Below, in pieces: positions 27,250 to 41,267 of a stretch of 64,000 nt of DNA. The first letter of the stretch is position 1; each line of letters starts with the position of its first letter. A model generated the notes under the pieces. That model searched no databases. It had not been told where the DNA came from and saw only the letters and a list, made by a program, of their open reading frames with translations. Source of the stretch: Candidatus Latescibacterota bacterium (GTDB lineage: Bacteria > Latescibacterota > UBA2968 > UBA8231); the NCBI GenBank assembly GCA_965200315.1, contig OZ241362.1, positions 3,744,001 through 3,808,000 on the forward strand. Reading direction: 5' to 3'. A program made the position numbers and the translations under genes.

Positions 27250-27488
27250 GGTCTGCCGGTGGCAATGGCCCGTTCGATTTCCTCGGCTTGCATCGGGCTC
27301 GCTCCTATTTGAACCCGCAGGGCCCGGGCACGAATCAGGCGCTCTTCAGGCGCAACGCGCCGGGCGAGAAAGGCGTGCTCCAAGCAGGCGATGATTTCAC
27401 TGTTGAGGCTGCGGCGGTGCGTTTGGGCGGCTGTTTTCAACTCTGCATAGAGCTTGGGTGGGATATTCTTTACGGTAATTGCTGGCAT
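27246..27488 (-). CDS. Arc/FitA-like ribbon-helix-helix antitoxin
   Basis: ITVKNIP..LY..LK..AQ..RRSLNSEII motif; 4-nt overlap with vapC. Confidence 0.9.
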   Translation of the reverse strand: MPAITVKNIPPKLYAELKTAAQTHRRSLNSEIIACLEHAFLARRVAPEERLIRARALRVQIGASPMQAEEIERAIATGRP

Positions 27489-27513
27489 GAGTACGCTCTT
27501 TCCTGAAGATTGT

Positions 27514-27553
27514 ATTTTGGTATCAAAATGGTTTACTCTTGTCTAGTGGTCAA
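27514..27553 (-). promoter_or_regulatory. vapBC promoter/operator
   Basis: TTGACC (27553-27548) and a near-palindrome ATTTTGGTATCAAAAT (27514-27529). Confidence 0.6.
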
Positions 27554-27587
27554 GAGGCTACGAAAAAAATCGTTTTTTTTGACCCAA

Positions 27588-27604
27588 CGGACATTCCCTG
27601 TCCG
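27588..27604. promoter_or_regulatory. Putative WYL/HTH regulator operator
   Basis: Perfect inverted repeat CGGACA-N5-TGTCCG upstream of the HTH gene, next to TTGACC at 27579. Confidence 0.5.
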
Positions 27605-27641
27605 CTTGGAGAACATCTTTAATTCCGTGGAGAACCAAGCT

Positions 27642-27854
27642 ATGCCCATAACCGATGCGATTCACAAGACGGATCGACTTGAAGAAATCAAAATACTGTT
27701 CCTGCGACGGCCCGAAGGGGTAGGGACTAGAGAAATCGCCCAGCTTTTGCGCGTGAGCCAACGGACGGCCCGGCGCTATGTACTGGAATTGTCGGAGAAG
27801 GGGCGGCTGCCGGTGTACCAGGAGGGCCGGGTCTGGAAGCTAGTGGAGGGCTGA
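27642..27854 (+). pseudogene. Winged-HTH protein, probably the N-terminal remnant of a WYL-domain regulator
   Basis: DRLEEI..L......G....EIAQLLRVSQRTARRYV..L motif. After the TGA the frame continues QIDLRRIQLNLSHA, which resembles a WYL-regulator linker, and then breaks. Confidence 0.65.
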
Positions 27855-27907
27855 CAAATCGATCTGCGTCGTATCCAGTTAAACCTATCGCACGCGGGTA
27901 AGAAAAC

Positions 27908-27949
27908 GCCTTGCAATGCCTTGCATAGTGAACAAAGTTGCACTATAAT
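27908..27949 (+). promoter_or_regulatory. cas operon sigma70 promoter
   Basis: TTGCAT (27921-27926), 17 nt, TATAAT (27944-27949). A direct repeat GCCTTGCA x2 overlaps the -35. Confidence 0.7.
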
Positions 27950-28150
27950 TTGAGTATGATAACAGCAAAACCAACTCAGAAGGAGAACTGACGTGGGCGC
28001 GACCTATCGGACTCAAACCGAGGGGCCGCCGCGAATACGTGCTTTCGGACGGAAAACCCATCGCCGAGATTGAGTTCGAGGGAGAAACGGAGAACTGAAG
28101 CGGTTGCCGGCGGTTTTGTTGAAGGCTTACCAATAAGTCTGGAGAAGAAC

Positions 28151-28798
28151 ATGAAATCCTATACAGTCCAATTTGAAATCGCTGGCCCAACAGCCATGTG
28201 GACCCGGCCCGATACTGGTGATGCACCAGTTAGCTATCTAGTGCCGACGTTTTCAGCGGTCAAGGGGATGTTTGAATCTATCTGCTGGCTCAAGTCAGCT
28301 AACGTTAAGCCCGTAAAAGTCGAAATATGCGCACCACTTATCTTTCACACGTACTCGACAAACTATGGAGGACCTTTGCGCAAGAGCAAGATAATGAAGA
28401 AGGGAAGCAGCTACCAACTGCTATCGACGGTGTTGATCAATGTCAACTATCGACTGTATGCGGAAGTGGAAACCGTAGATTCCAGAATGCGGCAACTATC
28501 AGAACGTGCGGAGCGATCTCCTACTCTTTCTAGAAACGGGGCGCACGCATATCGGGATATGTTTGAACGTCGTCTGACACGCGGCCAATGGCATTCCGTT
28601 CCTTGCCTAGGCTGGAAAGAGTTTACGCCAAGCTACGTAGGCCCGTTTCGCGACGAGACTAAGATCTGCAAAAAAATTAACACAGTCATTCCAAGCATGC
28701 TACACTCCGTCTTTTCCGAACCCAAATTTGGTACTTATCAGCCAACATTTCGACAAAATGTCGTGATCGAAAATGGAGTCCTAATCTATGATAAATGA
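28151..28798 (+). CDS. cas5: Type I-C Cas5 (Cas5c/Cas5d)
   Basis: GPTAMWTRP, SYLVPTFSAVKGMFESI and PCLGWKEF motifs. Confidence 0.92.
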   Translation: MKSYTVQFEIAGPTAMWTRPDTGDAPVSYLVPTFSAVKGMFESICWLKSANVKPVKVEICAPLIFHTYSTNYGGPLRKSKIMKKGSSYQLLSTVLINVNYRLYAEVETVDSRMRQLSERAERSPTLSRNGAHAYRDMFERRLTRGQWHSVPCLGWKEFTPSYVGPFRDETKICKKINTVIPSMLHSVFSEPKFGTYQPTFRQNVVIENGVLIYDK

Positions 28799-30920
28799 GC
28801 TCTTTCTTCTCTCCGAAAGTCTGAAACAGGCTAAAGTTAAATCTCAACCTTGGCACCGGCACTTAAAAGGTCTTCCGAGTGGGAAAGCATTCTACGTCGA
28901 ACTCGACCGTCAAGGACATGTTGCCAAAGTTTCACCTATTATCGACCCGCAAATTCGAGCAGAATTGCGGAAATACGAAAAAGCTGCTGGTTACTCATTT
29001 CCATCATTCAACGTGCCGCCGTTGCTACAGTTCGTAAACGATGAGGAAAAGGAACGCGCAGCCATATTAAAAAAAAGGCTTGGATCGAAGAAGCCGCCAG
29101 AGGCAACGGATCGTGACGAAGAACTCAAATATCTGCTCTCAGTGAGCACATCGGGCTGGGATCAGCCTAACAAGGGTGTGCGTGGCAAAGACGAAATGGA
29201 CAAAGTGAATGATTGTCTATCTTCAGTAGCTCAAAATCTGGCTACGATGATGGGTGATTGCACAGATGAATCACAATCGTTTTTTGAATTGCTGCGCCGA
29301 GCCCAACTAACAAAAGGGCACACCTTTCATAAACAGTTGGAAGAGAGAGCGGTGCAAGGGATAAAGTCCGAACCACCCGAAGCTACTGAATGGATGGATA
29401 TTTTGTTCTTTCATTCGGGGAAGACACCAAAGAAGATCGCGATCGTCTTAGAACTCGTTGATCAATCGCAATTTGAGTATCCGGCGAACCATCCTGAGGT
29501 CCAAGCTTGGGTAAACAAGCACCTCCTGAGAACGGAAACCGTTGGGGAAGCAAAGCAGAAGAACGCGGACACACCGGATGCCTTTGCGATGAAAGGCGGC
29601 GGTACGAATGACAGCTTTCCAGAAGTCAAAATCCCGAAGCTGGGAAAGGTCAAGCTGCGCGCGATGTCTAAAGAACAGCCGTGTCAGCGGCGGTATGGTT
29701 CGGCCGACGCCCAATCGTTCCGAGTCTCGCAGTCAGTACGTCAAACCATGAAGAACGCTCTGGAGTGGATCACAGAGGACGAACGACGCGGAAAAACATG
29801 GTGCGACGTATCTTCGCTAGGCGGCACGTCTGCAATATTGATTGCCTATCCCTCCGAACTGCCTCCAGAAGCACCAGAGCTCGCGGGGTTGTTCGGTGGT
29901 GAAAGAAACCAACCTGACCCTGATGGTTCACGCTTCGAGGTCTGTGCGAGTCGTGTTACTGAGACTCTTAAGGGACAAACAGCGTCGTCACAAAATGCTG
30001 ACGTGCGCGTTTTTGTTCTGACCAAGCCCGATGGCTTTCGGACCAAGGTGCTGCACAGCAGTCGCTATACTGTTCAACACTTGCTCGACAGCGCTGACGA
30101 ATGGCAAGAGCTTTGTCGCAACTCGCCACCAGTAATGATTCGTCAATTTGGTCCAAAGAAAGGTGACAAACCCGTTTGGCAGCGTCCTCGCACGCCCTAC
30201 CCGGCTGAGGTGGTGTGGTGCCTAAACACGGTTTGGCAGCAAATGGGAACGCATCCCAAGACTACTTTCGATTTCCAGATTTCGGATGGCCTGTCTTTAC
30301 TACTGTCAGACGGTCCGGTGTTGCAAACGGTTACGAGGAGGGCAGTTCGGGCTATCACCAGTAATTCGTTATCGCTGCTGCTAGCGATCGGCCAAGCTGG
30401 CCATCAGGAAAAGGTTCACTCGATGAGTAAGGTTTATGGCAAACAAGCCTTGTTGCTTCCCCAGATTCTCGGATTGCTACTTGGAAAACTCGACTATAAG
30501 AAAGGAATTTATATGAAAAATGCACCTTATCTGATTGGTCGTCTCCTGAGTTTGGCCGACCAGTTACACATGCAGTATTGCCGTGAAGTACGCAAGGGCC
30601 AAGTGCCACCTCAATTAGTAGGTAATGCCCTCATGACAAGTGCGATGGAAACACCCGAAAAGGCACTCGCCTTATTTTGGCAGCGCATCAAGCCCTACTA
30701 CGCTTGGGCACAAACTGTCCAAGGTGGCGAGGAAGTACGTCTCACCAAGTACTTCCTCGGCGAGATAGGGCGCATCTGCGAATCCCTTTCCGAGCCGGAG
30801 CTACCAAGCCGATGCTCGGATACCGATAAGGTCGCTATGCTGCTTGGGTACCTCGCCCGTTCTGAAAAGGAAAAATCCGACGATTCGTCGAAAACTTCAA
30901 ACGAAGGAGAGCAGGAATGA
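28788..30920 (+). CDS. cas8c: Divergent type I-C large subunit Cas8c
   Basis: Lies between cas5 and cas7. C-terminal YLIGRLL...MLLGY helical bundle. Confidence 0.8.
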   Translation: MINELFLLSESLKQAKVKSQPWHRHLKGLPSGKAFYVELDRQGHVAKVSPIIDPQIRAELRKYEKAAGYSFPSFNVPPLLQFVNDEEKERAAILKKRLGSKKPPEATDRDEELKYLLSVSTSGWDQPNKGVRGKDEMDKVNDCLSSVAQNLATMMGDCTDESQSFFELLRRAQLTKGHTFHKQLEERAVQGIKSEPPEATEWMDILFFHSGKTPKKIAIVLELVDQSQFEYPANHPEVQAWVNKHLLRTETVGEAKQKNADTPDAFAMKGGGTNDSFPEVKIPKLGKVKLRAMSKEQPCQRRYGSADAQSFRVSQSVRQTMKNALEWITEDERRGKTWCDVSSLGGTSAILIAYPSELPPEAPELAGLFGGERNQPDPDGSRFEVCASRVTETLKGQTASSQNADVRVFVLTKPDGFRTKVLHSSRYTVQHLLDSADEWQELCRNSPPVMIRQFGPKKGDKPVWQRPRTPYPAEVVWCLNTVWQQMGTHPKTTFDFQISDGLSLLLSDGPVLQTVTRRAVRAITSNSLSLLLAIGQAGHQEKVHSMSKVYGKQALLLPQILGLLLGKLDYKKGIYMKNAPYLIGRLLSLADQLHMQYCREVRKGQVPPQLVGNALMTSAMETPEKALALFWQRIKPYYAWAQTVQGGEEVRLTKYFLGEIGRICESLSEPELPSRCSDTDKVAMLLGYLARSEKEKSDDSSKTSNEGEQE
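30513..30920 (+). CDS. cas11: Cas11c small subunit from an internal in-frame start in cas8c
   Basis: AAAGGAA followed by an AT-rich spacer and in-frame ATG 30513, just before the YLIGRLL motif; 135 aa. Confidence 0.7.
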   Translation: MKNAPYLIGRLLSLADQLHMQYCREVRKGQVPPQLVGNALMTSAMETPEKALALFWQRIKPYYAWAQTVQGGEEVRLTKYFLGEIGRICESLSEPELPSRCSDTDKVAMLLGYLARSEKEKSDDSSKTSNEGEQE

Positions 30921-31774
30921 CAGCTACTATTGCCAACGGCGTGAAACGATTCACGGGACTTCTGGTCATCGAAGTCATCAACTCCAATCCCAACGGTGAC
31001 CCAGACCGCGAGAGCGACCCACGGCAGCGCCCTGATGAGCGCGGAGAAATTTCTCCTGTTTCGTTCAAACGCAAAGTGCGCGATTTGATCGAATCGAAGG
31101 ATGGGGCTGTCTGGCAAGAAATGCGGACGGAAATGGACCTGAGCGACGAGCGATTTATGATCCTCGAGTCGCGTGGACGAGATCGCAAGCAGATTGATCA
31201 GGAATTAAAAAATGGATCGTTTCAAGGGAAATACTGGGACGGTCGGGTATTCGGAAACACCTTCTTGGAAGAAGGAGCCGCTGATACGATTAAGACAGGC
31301 GTAGCCCAGTTTGGTCTTGGGCTAAGCGTGGCCCCGATCGAAATCAGTCGCCATACCAACACAAACAAAGCCGGGGTGCAAGAAGGCAAAGATCGTGGTA
31401 TGGCCCCGATGGGCTATCGCTTTGTGCCACATGGAGTCTATTGCATGCCATTCTTTATAAATCCCTCTATGGCTCATAAATCGGGTTGTACGCAACAAGA
31501 TATCAACTTGTTGTTCAAAGTTATACCATACGCCTACGCACATACTCGGTCTCACGCCCGACCACTTGTCGATCTACGTCATGCTTGGGTGGTCGAGCAT
31601 AAATCAGTGCTGGGGTCGTGCTCCGATTTCGAGATTATCGAGGCATTGACACCAAGCAAGGATGGTGATCCCAACTCACCCTCAAACGCATGGTCCGATT
31701 ACACTGTGCCGACGCAGTTATCGGACGCATTGGTTGCTCGTGTCGCGAAAGTTCGGGATTTGGTGGCAGAATGA
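30917..31774 (+). CDS. cas7: Type I-C Cas7 (Csd2)
   Basis: NSNPNGDPD, SFKRKVRD, DGRVFG and GVAQFG motifs. Confidence 0.93.
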   Translation: MTATIANGVKRFTGLLVIEVINSNPNGDPDRESDPRQRPDERGEISPVSFKRKVRDLIESKDGAVWQEMRTEMDLSDERFMILESRGRDRKQIDQELKNGSFQGKYWDGRVFGNTFLEEGAADTIKTGVAQFGLGLSVAPIEISRHTNTNKAGVQEGKDRGMAPMGYRFVPHGVYCMPFFINPSMAHKSGCTQQDINLLFKVIPYAYAHTRSHARPLVDLRHAWVVEHKSVLGSCSDFEIIEALTPSKDGDPNSPSNAWSDYTVPTQLSDALVARVAKVRDLVAE

Positions 31775-33993
31775 TGTTGCTTGCGCACAGTCCGCAACCA
31801 GAGAACGAGATTCCCGCTCAACCATATGCCGAACACATTGAGAACGTCATCGTGTCAGCAGTTCGGCATGCCAATGATCTGACTGCTACCGCTACTGATA
31901 GTCAATTGTTCAAGTTCGCTGTTCAGTTGGCAGCCGAATTTCACGATCTCGGCAAACTTGACCCGGAGAACCAAGCTGTCCTTTCAGTCGGTGGCAGTGG
32001 ACATCTGCCGGTGAATCACGTCGATGCGGGTGTCGCACATCTGTTAAAGCCCTCTTCTCAACCGGCCGCACAACTGGCTGCAATTCTCGTCTTCTCGCAC
32101 CACCGTGGCCTGCCGGCTATCGCCGAACACCGAACTCTAAAGTCCGGATCGCCGTTCCGCGATCTGGAGCCGGATGAATCTGGACGCAAAACGAAAGACC
32201 ACACGGATAGACACCTAGAAGAATACCTGCGGTTACACCTCTCAACCGTCGCTCGCGCGGTACAATCAACGTGCTCGAACGAGCAACGTCAGAGCGACAT
32301 GTCTGTATTGCTTCGTTTGGCGTTGTCCTGCCTCGTTGATGCCGATCATTTTGATACAGCGCGGAATTATGGACAGGCTTTTTTTTCAAGTCCGAAACTT
32401 GAGCCAGCCGTGCGGCTTGAACTTCTAGATCGATATGTCGCTGGGTTGGCAGAGAACAAAAAAGACGAGCGGACACGGCTTAGGCAGGACGTTTATCGCG
32501 ATTGCCGCAATGCCGATCCGTCAAGTGAATCAGTGTTAGCCTGCGATTCTCCCGTTGGGTCTGGGAAGACAACGGCAATTATGGCACACCTGCTGAACGT
32601 AGCGGCTGAGCGTAAACTACGACGAGTCTTTGTCGTCTTGCCTTACACCAATATCATTGACCAATCGGTACAAACTTATCGTAAGGCACTTGTCAAAGCG
32701 GACGAAGACCCAGAAGGCGTCGTCGCAGCTCACCATCATCGAGCGGAATTCGACAGTCTCGCGGCTCGACATCTGACTTACTCGTGGAACAGCCCCATAG
32801 TTATTACGACTGCGGTCCAGTTCTTTGAAACTCTCGCTGCCTGTCGAACTGGGGCACTGCGAAAGCTCCATCAAGTCGCTGGCTCCGCGATCTTTATCGA
32901 TGAGGCCCACGCCGCGTTGCCAGCACACTTGTGGCCAATCGCATGGAAGTGGCTCCAAGAACTGAAGACCAATTGGGGCTGTTACTTCGTTATGGGGTCG
33001 GGATCGTTGAGTCGCTTCTGGGAACTGCCTGAGTTCGTCGATTCACCCCCGAAGGTGCCTAATCTAGTGAACGTGCGGGACCTTGAGTCAACGCGCGTCA
33101 CCTATCAATCTCATTCGGAGCCCATGGGTCTGGCGACGCTGGAATCATGGCTGCTCCAATTGCCGGGTCCGCGGCTGCTCATTGTGAACACCGTGCAATC
33201 GGCGGCTGTCATCGCACGGCATCTTGCCTATTGGAAGAGCCGAGACAACTGGCAATCGGATCATCCTCAAGTCGAGCACCTTTCAACTGCACTCACCCCG
33301 ACTGACCGGGCGAGTACTCTAAATCGAGTCATTAAACGTCTCACAAACAAAGATGATCGAGATTGGACACTCGTGGCAACCTCCTGCGTTGAGGCTGGCG
33401 TTGATTTTTCATTTCGGACGGGCATCCGCGAACGCGCTTGCTTGAACAGCCTCTTGCAAATAGCTGGCCGGGTGAACCGTGGAAACGAGTACGAGTCTGC
33501 CGACGTTTGGGACATTCAATTGGTCCATGACTCATGGCTTCGGCCACACCCAACGTTTGAGCATTCATCCGTCGTATTGGGAGAGCTGTTCAACGAAAGG
33601 CGAGTTGATGTGAGTTCCTGCACCGAGGCTCTACGACGTGAGATTCGTCGCTCGCGACCGAAGCGACTGAAGGATGAGTTAGTCAAGGCCGAATGCGCAC
33701 TGAATTTTCCGAAGGTTGCTGAATTATTTCGCGTCATCGACTCGCCGACACTGACAGCCGTGGTTAATGAGACCCTAAAAGAAAAGATCAAATCAGGCCA
33801 ACATTTTCCAAGCCAAGAGCTCCAGAATGGAAGCGTACAGATATACGGATCACGCGCCAGTGAGTGGGCACTACGCGAGTTTGAGCACAGGCCAGGGCTA
33901 TTCGCGTGGGAATTAGATTACGATCCCTTCTTAGGATTCATGGAGGGCGTACTTCCACTCGTAGATGGCGGCGCAAAGGGGTACATAGTATGA
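31771..33993 (+). CDS. cas3: Cas3 HD-nuclease/helicase
   Basis: FHDLGK, LVDAD, PVGSGKT, DEAH, EAGVD and QIAGRVNR motifs. Confidence 0.95.
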   Translation: MMLLAHSPQPENEIPAQPYAEHIENVIVSAVRHANDLTATATDSQLFKFAVQLAAEFHDLGKLDPENQAVLSVGGSGHLPVNHVDAGVAHLLKPSSQPAAQLAAILVFSHHRGLPAIAEHRTLKSGSPFRDLEPDESGRKTKDHTDRHLEEYLRLHLSTVARAVQSTCSNEQRQSDMSVLLRLALSCLVDADHFDTARNYGQAFFSSPKLEPAVRLELLDRYVAGLAENKKDERTRLRQDVYRDCRNADPSSESVLACDSPVGSGKTTAIMAHLLNVAAERKLRRVFVVLPYTNIIDQSVQTYRKALVKADEDPEGVVAAHHHRAEFDSLAARHLTYSWNSPIVITTAVQFFETLAACRTGALRKLHQVAGSAIFIDEAHAALPAHLWPIAWKWLQELKTNWGCYFVMGSGSLSRFWELPEFVDSPPKVPNLVNVRDLESTRVTYQSHSEPMGLATLESWLLQLPGPRLLIVNTVQSAAVIARHLAYWKSRDNWQSDHPQVEHLSTALTPTDRASTLNRVIKRLTNKDDRDWTLVATSCVEAGVDFSFRTGIRERACLNSLLQIAGRVNRGNEYESADVWDIQLVHDSWLRPHPTFEHSSVVLGELFNERRVDVSSCTEALRREIRRSRPKRLKDELVKAECALNFPKVAELFRVIDSPTLTAVVNETLKEKIKSGQHFPSQELQNGSVQIYGSRASEWALREFEHRPGLFAWELDYDPFLGFMEGVLPLVDGGAKGYIV

Positions 33994-34012
33994 ACAGATA
34001 TCAGCCTGCGTT

Positions 34013-34633
34013 ATGAATCTGCCCGACCCCATGCCCCTCTCGCTTCTCAACGACTTTCTCTATTGCCAACGCCGGGCGGTGCTAAAGGCGATTGAAGGAT
34101 GGCGCGGGACCAACGAGCACACCGTGATCGGCGATGGTGTCCACGAGCAAGCGGACGTCTCCGGCTACGAAACCATCAAGGGCGTGACTTTGCTGCGTAC
34201 TCTGCCCGTCTGGTCGGAACGGCTCCGGCTCAGCGGCAAGTGCGACATCGTCGAGCGCCATTCCGATGGATCGTTGGTCCCGGTCGAATACAAAAAGGGC
34301 CGACGCCGCAAGTTCGACAACGACGACGCCCAGCTTTGCGCACAAGCGTTGTGCCTCGAAGAAATGTTCGGGCAGGACATTCCCCAGGGTGCCATCTTCC
34401 ACGCCAAGAGCAAGTGCCGCCGAGAGGTGGAATTTACCGAGGATTTGCGCCGCCTCACCGAACAGGCCATTGAAGCCATGCACCGGCTAATTAAAGAGGA
34501 AACGGTCCCAAACGCCGTGCATAAACCCCAGTGTTCTGAGTGTTCGCTTTTTGACCATTGCCTTCCCGAGATTACTAGCGTTCCGCCCGTGCTGGCGCGG
34601 GCCTATCGGGCCGTGTTCGATATCACCGACTAG
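34013..34633 (+). CDS. cas4: Cas4 exonuclease
   Basis: YCQRR, GKCDIVE, PVEYKKG, QLCAQALCLEEM and CxxCS...C motifs. Confidence 0.96.
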   Translation: MNLPDPMPLSLLNDFLYCQRRAVLKAIEGWRGTNEHTVIGDGVHEQADVSGYETIKGVTLLRTLPVWSERLRLSGKCDIVERHSDGSLVPVEYKKGRRRKFDNDDAQLCAQALCLEEMFGQDIPQGAIFHAKSKCRREVEFTEDLRRLTEQAIEAMHRLIKEETVPNAVHKPQCSECSLFDHCLPEITSVPPVLARAYRAVFDITD

Positions 34634-34643
34634 AGATTTCTAG

Positions 34644-34680
34644 GCTTTCTTCTTGCTTCGGCACGGGACCGGACTGAAAA
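34644..34680 (+). repeat. Solitary degenerate CRISPR repeat ending on the cas1 ATG
   Basis: GCTTTCTTCTTGCTTCGGCACGGGACCGGACTGAAAA, 37 nt. Keeps the TTCG-loop hairpin and matches the repeat 3' end at 13/16 positions. Confidence 0.7.
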
Positions 34681-35741
34681 TGGCCATTACTCAAAATACC
34701 CTCTACTTGACGACACCCGGCACCGTAGTGCTCAGGGATCACTTGACGCTGCGGGTCGAGATCGAAAAGCAAACTCGCTTGACCGTGCCGATTCACCACT
34801 TGGAAAGCGTCTGTGTGTTTGGGCAGGTCGTGGTTACGCCGCCGGCTATGGCCTTGTGCTGGGACCATCAGGTGGCAGTCCATTACCATACGGAGAGCGG
34901 CTACTTGCTGGCGCAAGTCTTGGGAAGCGGCGACACCCGCTACTTGCTGCGCCGTGCTCAGTATGCGACGGCGGACAGCCCACAGGAGGCATCGCGCATT
35001 GCCCGGCAGTTTGTCGCTGGAAAGCTGCAAAACGCACGTTCCAATCTCTTGCGTTCTGCCCGGGAAGCCGATGACGATGCCGACCAAGGAAAACTGGCGG
35101 ATACCGCAGCCGAACTGGCCCGGCTGATCCGCCGGCTCGGCGATGCTCCGCCCATTGCTCCAAGTTGCGAGCTCCGGGATGCGCTCGACCCAATCAGGGG
35201 CTTAGAGGGCTTGGGCACCAAAGCGTATTTCTCAGCGTTCCTACACATGCTCAAACAACAGCGAGAAGACTTCAGATTTGTAACCCGCACCCGGCGTCCG
35301 CCCCGGGATCGAATGAACTGCCTGCTTTCCTTCGTCTACGCCTTGGTTCGCCACGACTGCTTGGCCGCGTTGACGACCGCTGGGCTGGACCCTTATGTCG
35401 GCTGGCTTCATGCAACGCGGGCGGGAAGGCCGGCTTGTGCCTTGGACCTAATGGAAGAGTTTCGCCCCTGTTTGGCAGAACGGCTGGCATTGACTTTGAT
35501 CAACCGTCGGCAGATCGAGCCCAAGCATTTTCGCGAACGCGAGGGCGGTGCTGTGGAGTTTACTGAACGGGGGCGGAAAGAGGTCATTCAGGCTTGGCAA
35601 CGGCGCAAGCAAACAGAAGTAAAGCACTCCTTGTTCAAGCAGAATATCCGCCTAGGGCAAGTGTTCAGTATTCAAGCCAAATTGTTGGCCCGAAAGCTCC
35701 GCGGCGATATTCCCGACTATATCTCGTTTATCTCAAAATAA
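34680..35741 (+). CDS. cas1: Type I-C Cas1
   Basis: NTLYLTT, RGLEG, RRPPRDRMNCLLSFVY and LDLMEEFRP motifs. Confidence 0.97.
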   Translation: MAITQNTLYLTTPGTVVLRDHLTLRVEIEKQTRLTVPIHHLESVCVFGQVVVTPPAMALCWDHQVAVHYHTESGYLLAQVLGSGDTRYLLRRAQYATADSPQEASRIARQFVAGKLQNARSNLLRSAREADDDADQGKLADTAAELARLIRRLGDAPPIAPSCELRDALDPIRGLEGLGTKAYFSAFLHMLKQQREDFRFVTRTRRPPRDRMNCLLSFVYALVRHDCLAALTTAGLDPYVGWLHATRAGRPACALDLMEEFRPCLAERLALTLINRRQIEPKHFREREGGAVEFTERGRKEVIQAWQRRKQTEVKHSLFKQNIRLGQVFSIQAKLLARKLRGDIPDYISFISK

Positions 35742-35745
35742 CGCA

Positions 35746-35770
35746 GTCTTCTGCCGGTAGGGATTGAAAT
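35746..35770 (+). repeat. Collapsed CRISPR-repeat-like unit abutting the cas2 ATG
   Basis: GTCTTCTGCCGGTAGGGATTGAAAT has a repeat-like 5' GTCT and 3' GGATTGAAA. Confidence 0.65.
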
Positions 35771-36061
35771 ATGTTTGTTCTAGTCGCATACGACGTTTCC
35801 ACAACTGACCGGGCTGGGCAAAAGCGACTGCGCCGAGTGGCAAGAGCCTGTAAAGATTACGGCGTTCGAGCGCAAAAATCGCTTTTTGAATGTCAGGTGA
35901 GAAAGACGGAATGGGCTGCCCTCAGGAATCGTCTGCTAAAGGAAATCGATCCTAAACAGGATTCCCTCAGAATATATCACCTAGACGAAAACTCCAAAGA
36001 CAAGACGGAGCATCACGGGCTCAACGAACCTGTGGACCTCAATGAGCCACTCGTCTTATAG
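35771..36061 (+). CDS. cas2: Cas2
   Basis: LVAYDV, RLRRVA..C..YG.RAQKSLFEC and DSLRIY motifs. Confidence 0.97.
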   Translation: MFVLVAYDVSTTDRAGQKRLRRVARACKDYGVRAQKSLFECQVRKTEWAALRNRLLKEIDPKQDSLRIYHLDENSKDKTEHHGLNEPVDLNEPLVL

Positions 36062-36241
36062 TGTACGCGAATGCAAAGTAACGGCGTTTTGCGCTTACTT
36101 TCGCACAGTTGGCAACTCTATGACTAACAACAAGTTACAGCGAGGCATCAGCCTGCGCTTTGTCAGCAGGATGCGGATGAAAGGAGGTTCGCGCATCCGC
36201 CTGTGTAATCTTTTGGTATTCCGCTGGTTACAATAACACGC
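36062..36241 (+). promoter_or_regulatory. CRISPR leader
   Basis: Non-coding 180 nt between cas2 and the first repeat, with I-C-type GCGAA...TTCGC motifs and an IHF-like TAACAACAAGTTA. Confidence 0.75.
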
Positions 36242-38213
36242 GTCTCCCCTCGTTTCGGCGGGGGGAGCGGATTGAAACGAATACAAGCTCTCGCGGGCGC
36301 GTGTTCGGCGCCAGTCTCCCCTCGTTTCGGCGGGGGGAGCGGATTGAAACGAAAGCGGCTTCCCTACTTCGTACGTGATCCCCATGTCTCCCCTCGTTTC
36401 GGCGGGGGGAGCGGATTGAAACCAACGTCCACAACGGCCGTATGGCCCCTTACAGCGTCTCCCCTCGTTTCGGCGGGGGGAGCGGATTGAAACTTAGGGA
36501 TGTACCGGGTCCGTAGTGGGTACTACATGTCTCCCCTCGTTTCGGCGGGGGGAGCGGATTGAAACACATAGCGCGCAACTATACGGATGAGAACAAGCGG
36601 TCTCCCCTCGTTTCGGCGGGGGGAGCGGATTGAAACTACGTGGACGCCCGTCGGGTCATGGACCGACTTGAGTCTCCCCTCGTTTCGGCGGGGGGAGCGG
36701 ATTGAAACAGCCACAACCCGAGAGGATAGGAGATTGATATGCCGTCTCCCCTCGTTTCGGCGGGGGGAGCGGATTGAAACTACATCGAGCAGGGGATTAA
36801 AGAGCACCAACCTAGTCTCCCCTCGTTTCGGCGGGGGGAGCGGATTGAAACAGACAGCACTTGCCCGATTTAAAACGGCTAACGCGTCTCCCCTCGTTTC
36901 GGCGGGGGGAGCGGATTGAAACAAGTACGGCTACCACCCATAGGAAGGAGATTGAAGTCTCCCCTCGTTTCGGCGGGGGGAGCGGATTGAAACACCTCGG
37001 CGGTAGCCGCCCAGCGCATAGCCGAGGCGTCTCCCCTCGTTTCGGCGGGGGGAGCGGATTGAAACGAGGATGCTAACTACATCATCCGTTGCCCGATCAC
37101 GTCTCCCCTCGTTTCGGCGGGGGGAGCGGATTGAAACATACGTCAGCCCCGACGCCTTCAACTCCTTGAAGGTCTCCCCTCGTTTCGGCGGGGGGAGCGG
37201 ATTGAAACTATCAGCGGTCGATTGTCCACCTGCTGGATATCGGTCTCCCCTCGTTTCGGCGGGGGGAGCGGATTGAAACTCCCTAGTATCCAACTAGCTG
37301 TACTCTCGTGCCCATGTCTCCCCTCGTTTCGGCGGGGGGAGCGGATTGAAACCTATGTCCTACTACTCCCTACCTCCCATTATTAGGTCTCCCCTCGTTT
37401 CGGCGGGGGGAGCGGATTGAAACGTAGCGTGGTGGGCCTCATCGACGACGATCAGCCGTCTCCCCTCGTTTCGGCGGGGGGAGCGGATTGAAACCCTAGC
37501 TCCCATTCATTAGGCCGCGCCGACAGCGCGTCTCCCCTCGTTTCGGCGGGGGGAGCGGATTGAAACCGCACACGCGCATACATGCACGTGCACACGCACA
37601 GTCTCCCCTCGTTTCGGCGGGGGGAGCGGATTGAAACCGTTGGAGCAGGCCGAGCGTGCGGCGTATGCCGCGTCTCCCCTCGTTTCGGCGGGGGGAGCGG
37701 ATTGAAACGCATACGAGCGGATGGCTAGCAACCGAGACCCTAAGTCTCCCCTCGTTTCGGCGGGGGGAGCGGATTGAAACGCATACGAGCGGATGGCTAG
37801 CAACCGAGACCCTAAGTCTCCCCTCGTTTCGGCGGGGGGAGCGGATTGAAACGCATACGCCGCGGCCGTTGACGCTATGTCGACCATGTCTCCCCTCGTT
37901 TCGGCGGGGGGAGCGGATTGAAACCATGCGCTCGGCGATCTCCAAAGCCTCGGCGCAATGGTCTCCCCTCGTTTCGGCGGGGGGAGCGGATTGAAACTAT
38001 GGCGGACCTTGCCGGCGGCGATGTGCGCGCGGGTCTCCCCTCGTTTCGGCGGGGGGAGCGGATTGAAACATCGTGTCGCGGAAGCTCTCGCCTACGCCCT
38101 GCCTGTCTCCCCTCGTTTCGGCGGGGGGAGCGGATTGAAACTATCAGGGGGTGCTTTCGGATGCGGCCCAAGCACTGGTCTCCCCTCGTTTCGGAGGAGG
38201 CAGTGTACGAAAC
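36242..38213 (+). CRISPR. Type I-C CRISPR array: 27 identical 37-nt repeats, 1 degenerate terminal repeat, 27 spacers of 34-36 nt
   Basis: Repeat GTCTCCCCTCGTTTCGGCGGGGGGAGCGGATTGAAAC (10-bp stem, TTCG loop, 11-nt 3' tail), counted manually. The terminal repeat 38178-38213 is degenerate. Confidence 0.99.
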
Positions 38214-38218
38214 GAAAC

Positions 38219-38551
38219 CTAAGTGAGGTTTAGCCAATTTTGCAAAGATAAAATCAGTGTCGGTTGATCTTTCTGCGTGAGGTGCCCCACTTTCTTGAGG
38301 ATCAAGTTCTGATGGATAGTATAGATCCCTCGTTTAACAGCCGACGCGACATTGAGCCCTGATTGTTCCCAATTCTCAAGCACAAACTCACTTGGCAGCA
38401 GGTTCGTTATTTTACTGGTGAGAGGAACGATAAAAACATCTTGAGAAATATGCGGCGCACTTACAATAATAGCCGGACGTACTTTGAATGCACTCAAATC
38501 AGAAAAGGGATAACGAACAAGCACAACATCATTCGTCGAGTAATCGGGCAT
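38219..38551 (-). CDS. PemK/MazF family toxin
   Basis: DVVLVRYPFSD...KVRPAIIVS, IVPLTSK and GLNVAS motifs; AT-rich. Confidence 0.9.
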   Translation of the reverse strand: MPDYSTNDVVLVRYPFSDLSAFKVRPAIIVSAPHISQDVFIVPLTSKITNLLPSEFVLENWEQSGLNVASAVKRGIYTIHQNLILKKVGHLTQKDQPTLILSLQNWLNLT

Positions 38552-38729
38552 ACACATCGCCCTCTTTATTGTCCCAAATCTGTTTCAGAGTTTCCTCGCT
38601 AGCTTCCTGCCAGAAAGTATCATCGTCGGGCAACATAGTTATCAGCACCTTTTTTCCCTCGGGTAACTCAATGTGCTCTAAAGTTTCGATTTTGCCGTTT
38701 TTAACAATGGCCAAAGCAGTATTGAGCAT
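38529..38729 (-). CDS. Cognate antitoxin (AF2212/DUF104-like)
   Basis: AIVKNGKIE.LE.IELPEG.KVLIT motif and acidic WDN..GDVY tail; overlaps the toxin start. Confidence 0.75.
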   Translation of the reverse strand: MLNTALAIVKNGKIETLEHIELPEGKKVLITMLPDDDTFWQEASEETLKQIWDNKEGDVYARLLDE

Positions 38730-38773
38730 AGCAGCTCCTTCTCTGTGTCCAAACTACTGTTAGTATTAAAATG

Positions 38774-38871
38774 GTTTCCTGTCGTTTGGTAGTCAAAGAG
38801 GGGCCCTCCAAGGTCTCCCCTCGTTTTCTCGCCTAAAGGCGAGGTAAAGCGACAAGGAATCGGATTGAAAC
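38774..38871 (+). repeat. Orphan structured CRISPR-repeat derivative
   Basis: Contains the exact repeat 5' 14-mer (38813-38826) and the exact 3' 11-mer CGGATTGAAAC (38861-38871), plus extra hairpins. Confidence 0.8.
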
Positions 38872-39767
38872 TATACCTTCCGATCCTCTTCCTGTTGCAA
38901 CGCGTACAAAGACGTATAGCCCCCCGACCAATCCGGCGGGATGAGACAAGGCCGCGGGTCGTGATAGGCCCAACGCGCCGCTTTGCCCCGCACAATAGCC
39001 CCCGAATACTGCGGGCTGTTCAAAGGGTTGACCGTATAGGGAAAAGCGTCGGCTGCCGAGTAGATGTTGAGCAACAAGGGACGCCCCTTGGGCGATAAAT
39101 TCTTCTTAGACCCATGCACGGTGCGGCAATTGTGGATGGTGATGGAGCCAGCCGGCCCGGCCATGTACTCGACGCGGTCGAGATCAACTTGGGGCATATC
39201 CTGCCCGGCGATACAGCCGACCCATTGCCCAGCGGCATTGTACTGATCGAACAAAGGCCCGTTGTGGCTGCCGGCGATCCCGGCCAAAGGCCCTTGATCG
39301 TCGCCGACGTCATAGAGGTACGTGCCGATGGTCAAGGGGCTATAATTGGTATGCGGCCAATACGTTATATCCTGGTGCCACTTGACCTCTTCGCCGCCTT
39401 CGGACCACTTGAAATTCAATTTGGAATGGTGGTACTTGACGTCCGGGCCGACCAGATCGGCGGCCACGTCAGCCACAACCGACTGAGCGGCAAATTCCCA
39501 ATAGACCGGATGTTGGTCCACCGGGCTGGTAAGGCGTCGCAGGCGGGGCTTGTCGGCCGTGTGGTCGGGCTCCAGATCGAAGACCGCGTCCGATTGGCTC
39601 AGGCCGCGACTGCGCTCGACCATTTCGTCGGTGACGGCCAACAAGCGATCAATCCACTCCGGCCCGATGAGATTTTCGACCAACAGAAAGCCCTTGTCGA
39701 AGTAGGATTGCCGCTGCTTTTGGGTGAGGATCTTGGGAGGGTGCTCCAGAATTTGTTCGGGCGTCAT
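38871..39767 (-). CDS. Phytanoyl-CoA dioxygenase family protein
   Basis: KLNFK, WHQD..YWPHTN and HGS motifs. Confidence 0.92.
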   Translation of the reverse strand: MTPEQILEHPPKILTQKQRQSYFDKGFLLVENLIGPEWIDRLLAVTDEMVERSRGLSQSDAVFDLEPDHTADKPRLRRLTSPVDQHPVYWEFAAQSVVADVAADLVGPDVKYHHSKLNFKWSEGGEEVKWHQDITYWPHTNYSPLTIGTYLYDVGDDQGPLAGIAGSHNGPLFDQYNAAGQWVGCIAGQDMPQVDLDRVEYMAGPAGSITIHNCRTVHGSKKNLSPKGRPLLLNIYSAADAFPYTVNPLNSPQYSGAIVRGKAARWAYHDPRPCLIPPDWSGGYTSLYALQQEEDRKV

Positions 39768-39971
39768 GGTCCTGTCTCCTCTGCGTTGTAACAACTCAAT
39801 GGGTTCGGCGAGCACGTAATGCTAGCGAATTCGCACACACGGCTCAAGCAAAGAATCCTACCCAATACGCAATTCGGTAGGGCCTAATGGCGGTTTCGCT
39901 GCGGAAGCGCTAGTTTTTAATTGGAACTTCTGAATACGTCATTTAAGTAGGGTCACCCGTTGGATTGAAAC

Positions 39972-41267
39972 ATGAACTCAGAACACCACACCGTCATCGT
40001 CGTCGGCGGCGGCCCCGCGGGCCTGCCTTTAGCGGTCGTCTTGGGCGGCTGGCATCCTTTCTTCCGCAACAGCCGCATGTTTGCCACACGCTACGCGCCC
40101 CTAGCCGGATACTTGCAGCAGTTCGACCGCACCCTGTTGGGGCTAGACATGCAGTATCTCGTGCAGAGCGGCATCAAGCCCGTCGATCTGTTTCGCACCT
40201 TGCACCACCCGCGCCAGCTCTTTGAGGAACTGGACCAAGTCGCCATGGACTTTCGGCGCGGCGAGCCGCTTGATGTGCTGCTCATCAGCCGCGAGCCGGT
40301 CGGCGGCTTGTGGAACCGAGCGCCGCAAAACCTGCTGACCTTGTCGCCGGGCCAGTGGATGGAGTTTGCCTTTTATCCGCTGGCGCAACACGCCGCAGAA
40401 GTCGGGCGCACCTTAGACGTCAACGCCCTAATCCTCAAGACCGATCTGATTGACTACTATCACCGTGTGCCTGAGCGCTTTGGGGTGGCAGAGCGCATTC
40501 GCACCTTTGAGGAGGTCGAGCGGATTGAACCGCACGAAAGGGGCTTTCAGCTTGCCAGTCGGCACGTGCAAACGGGCGTTGAGCAGCACTACACTTGTAA
40601 GTACCTCGTCTTAGCAACCGGCCAGCGCGGTCGGTTGCGCTCCCTCGGCGTGGAGGGCGAGGACTGGCCTTTTGTCACCGCGCACTACGACAAGCCCGCA
40701 GACTTCCCCGGCGAGCGGGTGTTGGTCGTCGGCGGCGGGCGCTCGGGCGATTGGGCCGCGACCGAATTGCACGACGCCGGCAAGCAAGTGTACTACGCCA
40801 TGCGCCAAGGGCCAGCGGTCCATTGGCAGCTCATCAACGACAGCCGCCACGGGCTGCCCTATTACCAGCGCATCGCCGCAATCCTCGAAAGCCGCTCGCC
40901 CCGGCTCAAAACCTTGTATCACACCCATCTGACGCAGATTGCAGAGGACGGACGGGTCGGGCTGAAAAGTCCCGAGGGAAGCCAAGTGGTGGAGGTCGAT
41001 CACGTAATCAAGGAAATCGGCGGCACGGCCGACTATTCGATCTTGCAGGGCTTGGCACCGCTGACCCTGACGCCCATGCGCGACAACTACCGATTCCAAG
41101 TCGAGCAAGCCCAGACCCACGCCCACAGCTACGAGTCGATTGACGTTCCCAATCTCTATCTCGGCGGCTATCTCGCGGCCGGGATCGGACTCGTCGTCAT
41201 CGCCATGCACGGGACGACTTATGCGATTGCCGGGGATATTCTCCAAAAAGAGGGGCGGTGCTTGTAA
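39972..41267 (+). CDS. FAD/NAD(P)-dependent oxidoreductase, OSGIN-like
   Basis: Two Rossmann motifs (VGGGPAG, VGGGRSG), plus GGLW...LTLSPGQWM and ATG motifs. Confidence 0.85.
   Translation: MNSEHHTVIVVGGGPAGLPLAVVLGGWHPFFRNSRMFATRYAPLAGYLQQFDRTLLGLDMQYLVQSGIKPVDLFRTLHHPRQLFEELDQVAMDFRRGEPLDVLLISREPVGGLWNRAPQNLLTLSPGQWMEFAFYPLAQHAAEVGRTLDVNALILKTDLIDYYHRVPERFGVAERIRTFEEVERIEPHERGFQLASRHVQTGVEQHYTCKYLVLATGQRGRLRSLGVEGEDWPFVTAHYDKPADFPGERVLVVGGGRSGDWAATELHDAGKQVYYAMRQGPAVHWQLINDSRHGLPYYQRIAAILESRSPRLKTLYHTHLTQIAEDGRVGLKSPEGSQVVEVDHVIKEIGGTADYSILQGLAPLTLTPMRDNYRFQVEQAQTHAHSYESIDVPNLYLGGYLAAGIGLVVIAMHGTTYAIAGDILQKEGRCL

What the first reader, a model, noticed from the sequence alone, without database searches (positions are those of the whole stretch)
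34644..35773. Solitary CRISPR-repeat units sit on the start codons of cas1 and cas2: possible Cas5c-mediated control of the adaptation genes
Seen: the cas4-cas1 gap holds a 37-nt repeat-like unit. It keeps the TTCG tetraloop hairpin through compensatory changes (TTCTTGC-TTCG-GCACGGGA), and its tail CCGGACTGAAAA ends on the A of the cas1 ATG. The cas1-cas2 gap is almost entirely a collapsed repeat, GTCTTCTGCCGGTAGGGATTGAAAT, directly followed by the cas2 ATG. Known: in type I-C, Cas5c (Cas5d) cuts at the 3' base of the repeat hairpin and stays bound to the 11-nt handle. Inference: Cas5c could cut the cas mRNA at these junctions and occlude the ribosome-binding sites, or nucleate Cascade on them. 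That would be a post-transcriptional feedback loop tuning spacer acquisition, distinct from the DNA-level CreR/CreA mini-arrays.
Basis: partly seen in the sequence, partly recalled or inferred. Interest (0 to 1): 0.82.

Follow-up and report, generated by a model that had tools for sequence, protein, structure and literature searches.

The report
Eroded CRISPR repeats before cas1, cas2
Two worn-down copies of this locus's own CRISPR repeat sit directly in front of cas1 and cas2 and most likely now serve simply as their ribosome-binding sites, one case of a wider habit in this bacterial group of repeat copies sitting at gene starts.

Summary
The window alone does not show this. The cas4-cas1 unit (c1, 34645-34680) scores 10.9 bits, E 0.14, against a repeat covariance model. 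The cas1-cas2 unit (c2, 35746-35770) scores 7.3 bits, E 2. Relatives settle it: of 37 loci with Cas1 75-90% identical, 12 carry a clear repeat unit at the cas4-cas1 junction and about 9 at the cas1-cas2 junction. These share flank and signature bases with c1 and c2.

The claimed hairpin is not kept. The cas4-cas1 units diverge about as fast as synonymous sites. Only the 11-nt handle next to the start codon is well conserved. It supplies the GGA Shine-Dalgarno element and spacer, and in some relatives the TTG start codon itself.

Best reading: inherited ectopic repeats, eroding, whose handle serves as the translation-initiation region. Cas5c control is untested and not favoured for this locus.

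The same genome holds about 10 further solitary units, mostly at start codons of housekeeping genes. Some persist in same-genus genomes that lack this Cas5. That pattern is the more interesting lead.

The parts
28070..28798 (+). cas5 (divergent Cas5c-like)
   Evidence: NCBIfam TIGR01876 Cas5c at 43.2 bits, below the cut-off of 85. phmmer to Cas5c/Cas5d structures: 3vzi E 2.7e-12, 8dex E 9e-9. The catalytic Tyr is aligned; the Lys/His position is ambiguous.
28788..30920 (+). cas8c-like large subunit
   Evidence: TIGR01863 Cas8c/Csd1 E 1.5e-10, C-terminal part only, below the cut-off.
30917..31774 (+). cas7 (Csd2-like)
   Evidence: TIGR02589 E 5.1e-35, below the cut-off.
31690..33993 (+). cas3 (HD nuclease plus helicase). 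The start codon is uncertain because the listed ORF overlaps cas7.
   Evidence: cas3_core E 3.5e-22 and cas3_HD 46.6 bits, above its cut-off.
34013..34633 (+). cas4
   Evidence: TIGR00372 at 124.4 bits, above the cut-off of 65.
34645..34680 (+). c1: eroded solitary repeat unit. Its 3' handle CGGACTGAAA lies at -10..-1 of cas1, and the last aligned base is the A of the ATG.
   Evidence: 25 of 35 identities to the repeat. Covariance model 10.9 bits, E 0.14. Orthologous to the full units of L020, L035 and L036. Hairpin -3.7 kcal/mol.
34680..35741 (+). cas1 (Cas1c)
   Evidence: TIGR03640 at 411.6 bits, above the cut-off of 385.
35746..35770 (+). c2: collapsed solitary repeat unit, roughly GTCT plus the 3' arm remnant plus the handle GGGATTGAAAT, abutting the cas2 ATG.
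   Evidence: Covariance model 7.3 bits, E 2. Aligns with the full units of L004, L007, L009, L014, L005 and L021, sharing the TAACGCAG flank with L004 and L014.
35771..36061 (+). cas2
   Evidence: TIGR01573 at 69.4 bits, above its cut-off.
36062..36241 (+). CRISPR leader
   Evidence: Lies between cas2 and the first repeat. Its last ~30 nt recur upstream of cas1 in locus L010.
36242..38213 (+). CRISPR array: 27 identical 37-nt repeats plus a degenerate last one, with 34-36-nt spacers.
   Evidence: The repeat folds at -18.8 kcal/mol into a 10-bp stem with a UUCG-type loop and an 11-nt tail.
39962..39971 (+). Exact repeat handle GGATTGAAAC abutting the ATG of a 431-aa flavoprotein gene (39972-41267).
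   Evidence: Covariance model 12.9 bits for 39959-39971.

Best explanation
c1 and c2 are eroded copies of the locus's own 37-nt CRISPR repeat. A repeat unit entered the cas4|cas1 junction and the cas1|cas2 junction in an ancestor of this divergent I-C-like clade, whose gene order is cas5-cas8-cas7-cas3-cas4-cas1-cas2. The units were then inherited with the locus. This much is shown by comparison.

The hairpin half has since drifted at about the neutral rate. The 11-nt 3' handle stayed recognisable because it lies exactly where the ribosome must bind. Its GGA sits at -9..-7 of cas1 and -10..-8 of cas2, inside the zone where this genome places its Shine-Dalgarno G's, and an A/T-rich spacer follows. 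This much is shown from sequence.

So today the two units most likely work as ordinary translation-initiation regions of cas1 and cas2 on a polycistronic cas mRNA. That step is inferred. No involvement of Cas5c or Cascade is needed to explain what is seen.
For: Orthology:
- 12 of 37 related loci, plus the window, have a cas4-cas1 gap scoring at least 26 against their own repeat. That score is reached by 0.33% of genome windows.
- About 9 related loci have a unit in the cas1-cas2 gap.
- Shared derived bases and flanks tie c1 and c2 to these units.
- The units cluster on the Cas1 tree: 13 of 17 rows in the window's clade carry the cas4-cas1 unit. The cas1-cas2 unit is in 4 of 5 and 5 of 6 rows of two clades (quick tree).

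Erosion:
- Folds are -6.7 and -2.2 kcal/mol for c1 and c2, against -18.8 for the array repeat.
- There is no covariation.
- Unit identity is about equal to four-fold-site identity of cas1: WIN-L020 0.67 vs 0.62, WIN-L035 0.67 vs 0.66, L001-L002 0.68 vs 0.79.
- The handle is 87% (cas4-cas1 units) and 82% (cas1-cas2 units) identical to the array repeat. The arms are 58-60% and 41-49%.

Role in translation:
- The genome's Shine-Dalgarno is AAGGAG, with G enriched at -12..-8.
- In L004, L005, L007, L009, L014 and L021 the cas2 frame reads TTG-AAA-CTG from inside the handle, with AGGAG of the 3' arm upstream.
- In L001, L002 and L010 cas1 likewise starts at the handle TTG.
- For a 563-aa proteasome-ATPase-like gene of this genome, the handle TTG is the first possible start after an in-frame stop. 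That unit is kept in 5 same-genus genomes.
- No promoter-like or terminator-like site lies in either gap.
- Contigs from RNA libraries bridge both gaps.
Against: Cas5c is reported to read mainly the cut site and the handle downstream of it (passages of PMC8524198). Handle conservation therefore fits Cas5c binding as well as ribosome binding, and the two cannot be separated by sequence alone.

An ordinary ribosome-binding site does not need the exact handle letters. Yet the exact 10-mer abuts a start codon in 3 of 4214 crude genes, against about 0.02 expected (my own product of the frequencies).

The cas1-cas2 units are more conserved than four-fold sites: L005-L021 0.83 vs 0.51, L004-L014 0.67 vs 0.38. 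Something constrains them.

Several relatives keep a decent hairpin: L002 -14.9 kcal/mol, z -3.7; L035 -11.9, z -2.1.

Translation start sites are inferred, not measured. The gene calls behind the genome-wide statistics are crude.
Confidence: 0.6

Rival explanations
1. Cas5c, alone or nucleating Cascade, binds or cuts the cas mRNA at c1 and c2. This leaves an 11-nt leader with the protein sitting on the Shine-Dalgarno element, and so tunes Cas1 and Cas2 synthesis after transcription.
For: The units derive from the repeat, lie in sense orientation and are in register with the start codon. The handle, which Cas5c reads, is the best-kept part (PMC8524198 passages). In other I-C systems, single repeat-like units are cut by Cas5c 11 nt before the 'spacer' (passages of bioRxiv 10.1101/2024.12.27.630466). 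Some relatives keep the hairpin. The locus's Cas5 is a Cas5c homologue with the catalytic Tyr aligned.
Against: In this window the stem is nearly gone. There is no covariation. The cas4-cas1 units diverge at a near-neutral rate. 23 of 37 related loci have no cas1-cas2 unit and 24 of 37 have no clear cas4-cas1 unit, so the feature is dispensable. Same-genus genomes G021, G002 and G010 keep 5, 2 and 2 solitary units, yet this Cas5 was not found in them. The catalytic Lys/His position of this Cas5 is ambiguous.
Confidence: 0.12
2. Pure scar. The units are neutral debris of ectopic repeat insertion. Their resemblance to a ribosome-binding site is incidental, and any sequence in these short gaps would do.
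For: Near-neutral divergence of the cas4-cas1 units. Presence/absence polymorphism across loci. Published evidence for dynamic gain and loss of ectopic repeat copies (PMC10120712 section 20). The solitary units before pdxS and aceE are insertions about one CRISPR period long, seen only in G000 and G008 among the same-genus genomes read.
Against: The handle is kept better than the arms. The cas1-cas2 units are more conserved than four-fold sites. Units lie at start codons far more often than chance allows: 5 of 9 within 60 nt upstream of a crude gene start, against 2.4% of random positions. In several genes the only candidate start codon lies in the handle.
Confidence: 0.17
3. crlRNA/CreR-type guide. 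Each unit plus the 35 nt that follow is processed into a crRNA-like RNA. That RNA steers Cascade to a partly matching, PAM-flanked promoter and represses transcription at the DNA level.
For: This is the known function of solitary units in I-C loci (passages of bioRxiv 10.1101/2024.12.27.630466) and of mini-arrays generally (PMC10120712 abstract).
Against: The sequence following c1, c2 and 12 other solitary units was searched against the genome for TTN followed by at least 14 of 20 matches. None of the pseudo-spacers gave clearly more hits than 5 shuffles of itself, and none hit the cas region. Here the pseudo-spacer would be the coding start of cas1 or cas2. The known units sit upstream of cas5c, where the covariance model finds nothing in this window.
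Confidence: 0.03
4. Chance. c1 and c2 are ordinary GGA-type ribosome-binding regions that merely resemble the repeat's tail.
For: Taken alone, c2 is at chance level and c1 is marginal. GGA is the core of the Shine-Dalgarno element.
Against: Full-length units lie at the same junctions in relatives, with shared flanks. GGATTGA is rare before genes: 9 of 4214. GGATTGANNNATG occurs twice in the window against 0.07 expected.
Confidence: 0.05

Closest known systems
[quoted passage not shown] 2023, PMC10120712; abstract, sections 20-21 and passages read)
   Same: Repeat-derived sequences outside the array, in intergenic regions of a type I cas locus. They are often partly degraded, conserved among related loci, and attributed to the recombinogenic nature of repeats.
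   Different: The reported hot spots are long gaps beside cas3, cas8 or cas6, usually as two-repeat mini-arrays with a promoter-matching spacer. Here single units fill very short gaps (46 and 29 nt) and abut the start codons of cas1 and cas2. No target was found. I-C is mentioned once in that text. Its supplementary tables, which could list cas1- or cas2-adjacent hits, could not be opened.
Type I-C solitary repeat units giving crlRNAs (bioRxiv 10.1101/2024.12.27.630466; passages read)
   Same: A single repeat-like unit inside a I-C cas operon, in sense orientation. In those systems Cas5c was shown to cut it, leaving an 11-nt 5' handle.
   Different: Those units precede cas5c, keep the hairpin, and are followed by a guide that matches a TTC/TTA-flanked promoter of a neighbouring defence gene. 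c1 and c2 have lost the hairpin, are followed by coding sequence, and no target was found.
CreR/CreA degenerate mini-CRISPRs (10.1101/2023.03.10.532045 and PMC8501985; search listings and abstracts only)
   Same: Degenerate repeats co-opted within cas loci for control of cas or toxin expression.
   Different: They work at the DNA level through Cascade binding to a promoter, and they have two flanking repeats. Neither holds here.
Racr RNA anti-CRISPRs (PMC10651486; abstract in listing only)
   Same: Solitary repeat units that mimic the array repeat.
   Different: Racrs are encoded by viruses and other mobile elements. c1 and c2 lie in the cas operon. The best solitary unit elsewhere in this genome lies among metabolic genes, not in a prophage.
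Engineered Csy4/Cas6 hairpins in mRNA leaders (PMC4604432; abstract in listing only)
   Same: A CRISPR repeat hairpin placed in front of a coding region, so that a Cas endoribonuclease sets the mRNA 5' end and the translation level.
   Different: It is a synthetic device. No natural counterpart turned up in my four searches.

Membership tests
Solitary (ectopic) CRISPR repeat unit | Sequence similarity to the cognate array repeat beyond chance | tested here: inconclusive
   c1: local score 32.5, matched by 28 other non-array windows of 357,280, but covariance model E 0.14. c2: chance level on its own.
Solitary (ectopic) CRISPR repeat unit | Homologous position in related loci holds recognisable repeat units | tested here: met
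   12 of 37 loci at the cas4-cas1 junction and about 9 of 37 at the cas1-cas2 junction, with shared flank and signature bases.
Solitary (ectopic) CRISPR repeat unit | Lies outside the array, on the same strand as the array repeats | tested here: met
Cas5c (Cas5d) processing substrate | Stable stem-loop whose 3' base is the cut site | tested here: not met
   c1 stem -3.7 kcal/mol, ensemble probability 0.003. c2 has no stem. The array repeat folds at -18.8.
Cas5c (Cas5d) processing substrate | 11-nt handle downstream of the cut, including the first three bases | tested here: inconclusive
   c1 CGGACTGAAA(A) and c2 GGGATTGAAAT each match 9 of 11 handle positions. Tolerance of this Cas5 to such changes is unknown.
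Cas5c (Cas5d) processing substrate | Cas5-dependent processed 5' end in vivo or in vitro | not testable with these tools
   The four RNA runs are kept as contigs only. Contigs bridge both gaps.
crlRNA / CreR regulatory guide | Pseudo-spacer partly complementary to a PAM-flanked promoter target | tested here: not met
   No excess of TTN plus at least 14/20 matches over shuffles, and no hit in the cas region.
Type I-C CRISPR-Cas locus | Cas1c, Cas5c, Cas8c and Cas7c signature proteins | tested here: inconclusive
   Cas1c is above its curated cut-off. Cas5c, Cas8c and Cas7 hits are below theirs. cas3 lies after cas7, and its best partial hit is I-G Cas3g. This is a divergent I-C-like variant.
Shine-Dalgarno translation-initiation region | Purine-rich GGA(G) core 5-10 nt before the start codon, as in the genome's other genes | tested here: met
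   GGA lies at -9..-7 (cas1) and -10..-8 (cas2). Genome G enrichment is at -12..-8, and the top words are AGGAG and AAGGAG.

The most novel reading that the evidence does not exclude
In this clade the I-C repeat acts as a portable translational switch. Its 3' arm GGGGAG is a Shine-Dalgarno element that is sequestered by the anti-Shine-Dalgarno-like 5' arm CUCCCC, and its handle carries the spacer or the TTG start codon. Spacer-repeat units shed from arrays land at gene starts: cas1, cas2, pdxS, aceE, sdhA, a proteasome-ATPase-like gene and others. Where the hairpin is intact, Cas5c cleavage or binding at the stem base couples translation of those genes, the adaptation genes among them, to the level of free effector. 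This would be an RNA-level regulon or addiction circuit, distinct from the DNA-level CreR/crlRNA control.
Probability: 0.1. Interest if true: 0.85.

Novelty: new variant of a known kind. Interest (0 to 1): 0.5.

Why it matters
Ectopic repeat-like sequences in cas loci are known, chiefly as DNA-level regulators. This locus and its relatives show a different fate. Single repeat units become fixed exactly at start codons, where the repeat's handle becomes the ribosome-binding site or even the start codon of cas1, cas2 and several housekeeping genes.

If that is all, it is a tidy example of exaptation. It is also a warning that repeat-like motifs at cas gene starts need not be regulatory.

If the intact units are Cas5c substrates, it would be the first natural case of a CRISPR endoribonuclease setting mRNA leaders. 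It would also tie spacer acquisition to effector abundance. The material to test this exists: intact and eroded versions of the same junction in close relatives.

Tried and rejected
1. Rfam at gathering thresholds on 27000-41000 found nothing.

2. A crlRNA-type DNA target was sought for c1, c2 and 12 other solitary units, as TTN followed by at least 14 of 20 matches. None gave clearly more hits than 5 shuffles, so this reading was rejected.

3. The promoter and terminator scan found no site in either gap. An internal promoter or attenuator reading was dropped.

4. Hairpin covariation on 13 cas4-cas1 units plus the array repeat was not above shuffles. The MAFFT alignment used is not structure-aware, so this is a weak negative.

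5. RNA evidence: four metatranscriptome runs from one study hold the stretch, but only as contigs. Contig 27877-35317 of X1 bridges the cas4-cas1 gap, and 35300-36271 bridges the cas1-cas2 gap. This shows that unbroken molecules exist. DNA carry-over is not excluded, and the data say nothing on ends or processing. Parts without cover, including the array interior, carry no meaning.

6. In 19 distant canonical I-C loci (Cas1 37-46% identical) no unit was seen at either junction, with all scores at or below 21. For 4 of these loci the query was a fall-back repeat, not their own, so those 4 rows should be disregarded.

7. The idea that the near-perfect unit at genome 226.2 kb is a prophage Racr was rejected. 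Its neighbours are SDR, MBL-fold, GHMP-kinase, epimerase and chaperonin genes.

8. The careful Cas1 tree did not finish in 288 s, so only the quick tree is used. L036, L037, L044 and L056 (truncated or frameshifted cas1) and L045-L058 were left out of it.

9. In one search my peptide pattern failed to locate the aceE start in 9 of 14 loci. The aceE count therefore rests on 5 readable loci.

11. Complex prediction, structure prediction and the large protein searches were not used. They would not bear on an RNA-protein question.

12. "Not in print" rests on four searches and on reading parts of three papers. Supplementary tables were closed.
Full report
**What is there**

The window holds a complete type I-C-like locus in an unusual order. 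The genes are cas5 (28070-28798), a cas8c-like gene (28788-30920), cas7 (30917-31774), cas3 (31690-33993), cas4 (34013-34633), cas1 (34680-35741) and cas2 (35771-36061). A 180-nt leader follows, then 27 identical 37-nt repeats plus a degenerate last one at 36242-38213.

Only Cas1c, Cas4, Cas2 and the Cas3 HD domain pass their curated cut-offs. Cas5c, Cas8c and Cas7 match below theirs, so this is a divergent I-C-like variant. The repeat folds at -18.8 kcal/mol into a 10-bp stem with a four-base loop, followed by the 11-nt tail CGGATTGAAAC.

**The observation**

c1 aligns to repeat positions 2-36 with 25 of 35 identities and one gap. I chopped the genome into 357,280 overlapping 60-nt windows on both strands. 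Only 28 other windows outside the array reach c1's local score of 32.5, and 14 of those are themselves solitary repeat units.

A covariance model was built from 23 distinct repeats of related loci. It finds c1 at 34645-34680 with 10.9 bits, E 0.14, and c2 at 35746-35770 with 7.3 bits, E 2, in a 16-kb unfiltered search. So c1 alone is marginal and c2 alone is at chance level. Its local score of 22 is reached by 2.6% of windows.

The claimed hairpin does not hold. The minimum-energy fold is a different structure at -6.7 kcal/mol, z -0.41. c2 has z +0.55.

**Relatives decide the origin**

A Cas1 search of species-representative genomes gave 58 loci. In 37 of them Cas1 is 75-90% identical. They are metagenome-assembled genomes with inconsistent phylum labels. 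Their arrays carry the same 37-nt repeat family.

At the cas4-cas1 junction, 12 of 37 loci score at least 26 against their own repeat. In L035, L036, L020, L008 and L023 the unit abuts the ATG. In L010, L029 and L030 it lies 8-23 nt before the start.

At the cas1-cas2 junction, L004, L005, L007, L009, L014 and L021 carry a full unit. L017, L029 and L030 carry partial units. In 23 of 37 loci cas1 and cas2 overlap or lie at most 5 nt apart, with no unit.

c1 shares the derived GGGAC-CGGA junction with L020 and lacks one final base relative to it. c2 shares the TAA-CGCAG flank with L004 and L014 and lacks about 16 nt of the hairpin.

On a quick Cas1 tree, the cas4-cas1 unit occupies 13 of 17 rows of the window's clade. 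The cas1-cas2 unit is in 4 of 5 and 5 of 6 rows of two clades. In 19 distant canonical I-C loci neither junction holds a unit (4 of those rows used a fall-back query and should be discounted).

Conclusion: c1 and c2 are descendants of real repeat units, inherited with the locus.

**Is the structure under selection?**

It is not. Thirteen cas4-cas1 units plus the array repeat give 72.7% paired cells against 70.0 +/- 1.9 in shuffles, with 67 of 500 shuffles at least as high.

Folding the units of relatives gives repeat-like hairpins in some loci: L002 at -14.9 kcal/mol (z -3.7), L035 at -11.9 (z -2.1), L030 at -12.5 and L029 at -10.1. L008, L023 and most cas1-cas2 units have none, with z near 0.

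Pairwise identity of the cas4-cas1 unit region is about that of four-fold degenerate sites of cas1 in the same pair. Examples: L001-L002 0.68 vs 0.79, L020-L023 0.56 vs 0.73, WIN-L020 0.67 vs 0.62, WIN-L035 0.67 vs 0.66. This is near-neutral drift.

The cas1-cas2 units are better kept than four-fold sites: L005-L021 0.83 vs 0.51, L004-L014 0.67 vs 0.38.

Within units the handle is 87% and 82% identical to the array repeat. The arms are 58-60% and 41-49%.

**What the handle does**

The genome uses a canonical Shine-Dalgarno element. AGGAG and AAGGAG are the top upstream words, and G is enriched at -12..-8 in 2163 start-constrained genes. The GGA of c1 lies at -9..-7 and that of c2 at -10..-8.

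In six relatives the cas2 frame can only start at the TTG inside the handle (TTG-AAA-CTG-ATC..., giving MKLIAYD), with AGGAG of the 3' arm upstream. In L001, L002 and L010 cas1 starts the same way.

Neither gap holds a promoter-like or terminator-like site. Contigs from RNA libraries run unbroken across both gaps. That fits one polycistronic RNA, though contigs cannot show ends and DNA carry-over is not excluded.

The simplest account is that the repeat's tail is the translation-initiation region of cas1 and cas2.

GGATTGA is not an ordinary ribosome-binding context. It occurs before 9 of 4214 crude genes, rank 67 of 249 GGANNNN words, and 7 of those 9 read CGGATTGA like the handle. The exact 10-mer abuts a start codon in 3 of 4214 genes, where I expect about 0.02 from the positional frequencies (my own arithmetic). 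The murA example exists at 16383-16395. So the resemblance is not a generic ribosome-binding-site effect. It reflects repeated descent from repeats.

**The wider pattern (partly followed)**

All three arrays of the genome end in GGATTGAAAC. Outside them the exact 14-mer of the 3' arm plus handle occurs 5 times, against about 0.03 expected by my arithmetic.

The covariance model finds 10 solitary hits, at genome 226.2, 2726.0, 5233.2, 4440.4, 4091.1, 2279.1 (two hits), 103.3, 4166.7 and 4318.7 kb, scoring 54.6 down to 18.9 bits. Five of nine sites lie within 60 nt upstream of a crude gene start, against 2.4% of random positions.

The genes behind them include pdxS-, aceE- and sdhA-like genes, a lipoprotein gene, a PhyH-like gene, an 81-aa ORF heading an SDR operon, and a proteasome-ATPase-like gene. 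For the last of these, the first possible start after an in-frame stop is the handle's TTG.

The pdxS unit is present in 2 of the 11 same-genus genomes that could be read (G000 and G008). It is an insertion of about 67 nt, roughly one CRISPR period. The aceE unit is in the same two genomes, of five read. A two-repeat mini-array of a different, canonical I-C repeat abuts the sdhA GTG in 4 of 14 genomes.

Genomes G021, G002 and G010 are single contigs, 93-94% complete. They hold 5, 2 and 2 solitary units, yet this locus's Cas5 was not found in them, nor an intact ortholog of its Cas1. G002 keeps a 116-aa Cas1 fragment. The unit before the proteasome-ATPase-like gene is kept in five genomes, and further units abut ATGs by 0-1 nt.

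Units that persist without the cognate Cas5 argue that Cas5c is not needed for whatever they do.

**Compared with what is known**

Standalone repeat-like sequences are enriched in cas loci, mostly beside cas3, cas8 or cas6 in long gaps, often as promoter-targeting mini-arrays (PMC10120712, sections 20-21). In I-C systems, single units before cas5c give Cas5c-processed crlRNAs that repress neighbouring defence genes (bioRxiv 10.1101/2024.12.27.630466, passages). [quoted passage not shown]

No target fitting a crlRNA role was found for any unit here. I found no paper describing repeat units fused to the start codons of cas1 or cas2, or natural Cas-nuclease control of mRNA leaders. Supplements were closed.

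**Verdict**

The regulatory mechanism is untested and disfavoured for this locus. The best explanation is inherited, eroding ectopic repeats whose handle serves as the ribosome-binding site (confidence 0.6).

The finding is a new variant of a known kind. Its value lies in the clade-wide and genome-wide association of repeat units with start codons, which deserves a proper survey and a simple Cas5 cleavage and reporter test.

Noticed in passing
window 39962-39971; genome (G000:C1) 103.3, 226.2, 2279.1, 2726.0, 4091.1, 4166.7, 4318.7, 4440.4, 5233.2 kb: About 10 solitary copies of the I-C repeat lie outside arrays. Most are in sense orientation 0-25 nt before start codons of chromosomal genes (pdxS-, aceE-, sdhA-like, a proteasome-ATPase-like gene, a PhyH-like gene, a lipoprotein gene, and an 81-aa ORF heading an SDR operon). 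For the ATPase-like gene the handle's TTG is the first possible start codon.
   Followed up: partly
L059/L067 (pdxS), L071/L079 (aceE): The pdxS and aceE units are insertions of about 67-80 nt, roughly one spacer plus one repeat. They were seen only in G000 and G008 among the same-genus genomes read. The aceE insertion begins with TTGAAAC, and the empty site reads TTGTAAAAC. This hints at array-derived spacer-repeat units entering at handle-like microhomology.
   Followed up: partly
L085, L087, L088, L096 (sdhA upstream): A mini-array of two canonical 30-32-nt I-C repeats, a type for which this genome has no array, has a 14-17-nt spacer and abuts the GTG start of sdhA in 4 of 14 same-genus genomes. 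The other 10 have an unrelated upstream sequence without a Shine-Dalgarno element.
   Followed up: partly
G021, G002, G010: Same-genus genomes keep 2-5 solitary units of this repeat. This locus's Cas5 was not found in them, and Cas1 is absent or reduced to a 116-aa fragment. The cas locus seems to come and go while solitary units stay.
   Followed up: partly
window 38813-38871: A split repeat: the first 14 nt of the repeat, then about 34 nt holding a different small hairpin, then the exact handle. It lies about 600 nt past the array end, beyond two small overlapping minus-strand ORFs (38219-38557 and 38529-38729) that were not examined.
   Followed up: no
window 37672-37887: Two consecutive repeat-spacer units (37672-37743 and 37744-37815) are identical, so the spacer is duplicated. 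The next spacer starts with the same 8 bases.
   Followed up: no
window 36709-36743 and 36923-36956: Two spacers contain GGAGATTGA, one of them followed by TATG. These look like ribosome-binding regions captured from a target.
   Followed up: no
L010:2900-3010: Between cas4 and cas1 this relative carries a copy of the last ~35 nt of its own CRISPR leader, plus a repeat, plus a second bare handle that holds the cas1 TTG start. This is a duplicated leader-repeat junction inside the operon.
   Followed up: partly
L030 gap 1, L017 gap 2, L002 gap 1, L112: The handle (GGATTGAAAC-like) is tandemly duplicated two or three times in several units.
   Followed up: no
genome 129.1-147.7 kb and 592.8-601.2 kb: Two further very large arrays (about 248 and 110 repeats) have different 37-nt repeats that end in the same GGATTGAAAC.
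   Followed up: no
genome 4318.7 kb; L102, L104: One conserved solitary unit lies antisense to its neighbour. The complement of its 5' arm (GAGGA) sits 6 nt before the ATG of the opposite-strand gene, so either end of the repeat can offer a Shine-Dalgarno-like word.
   Followed up: no
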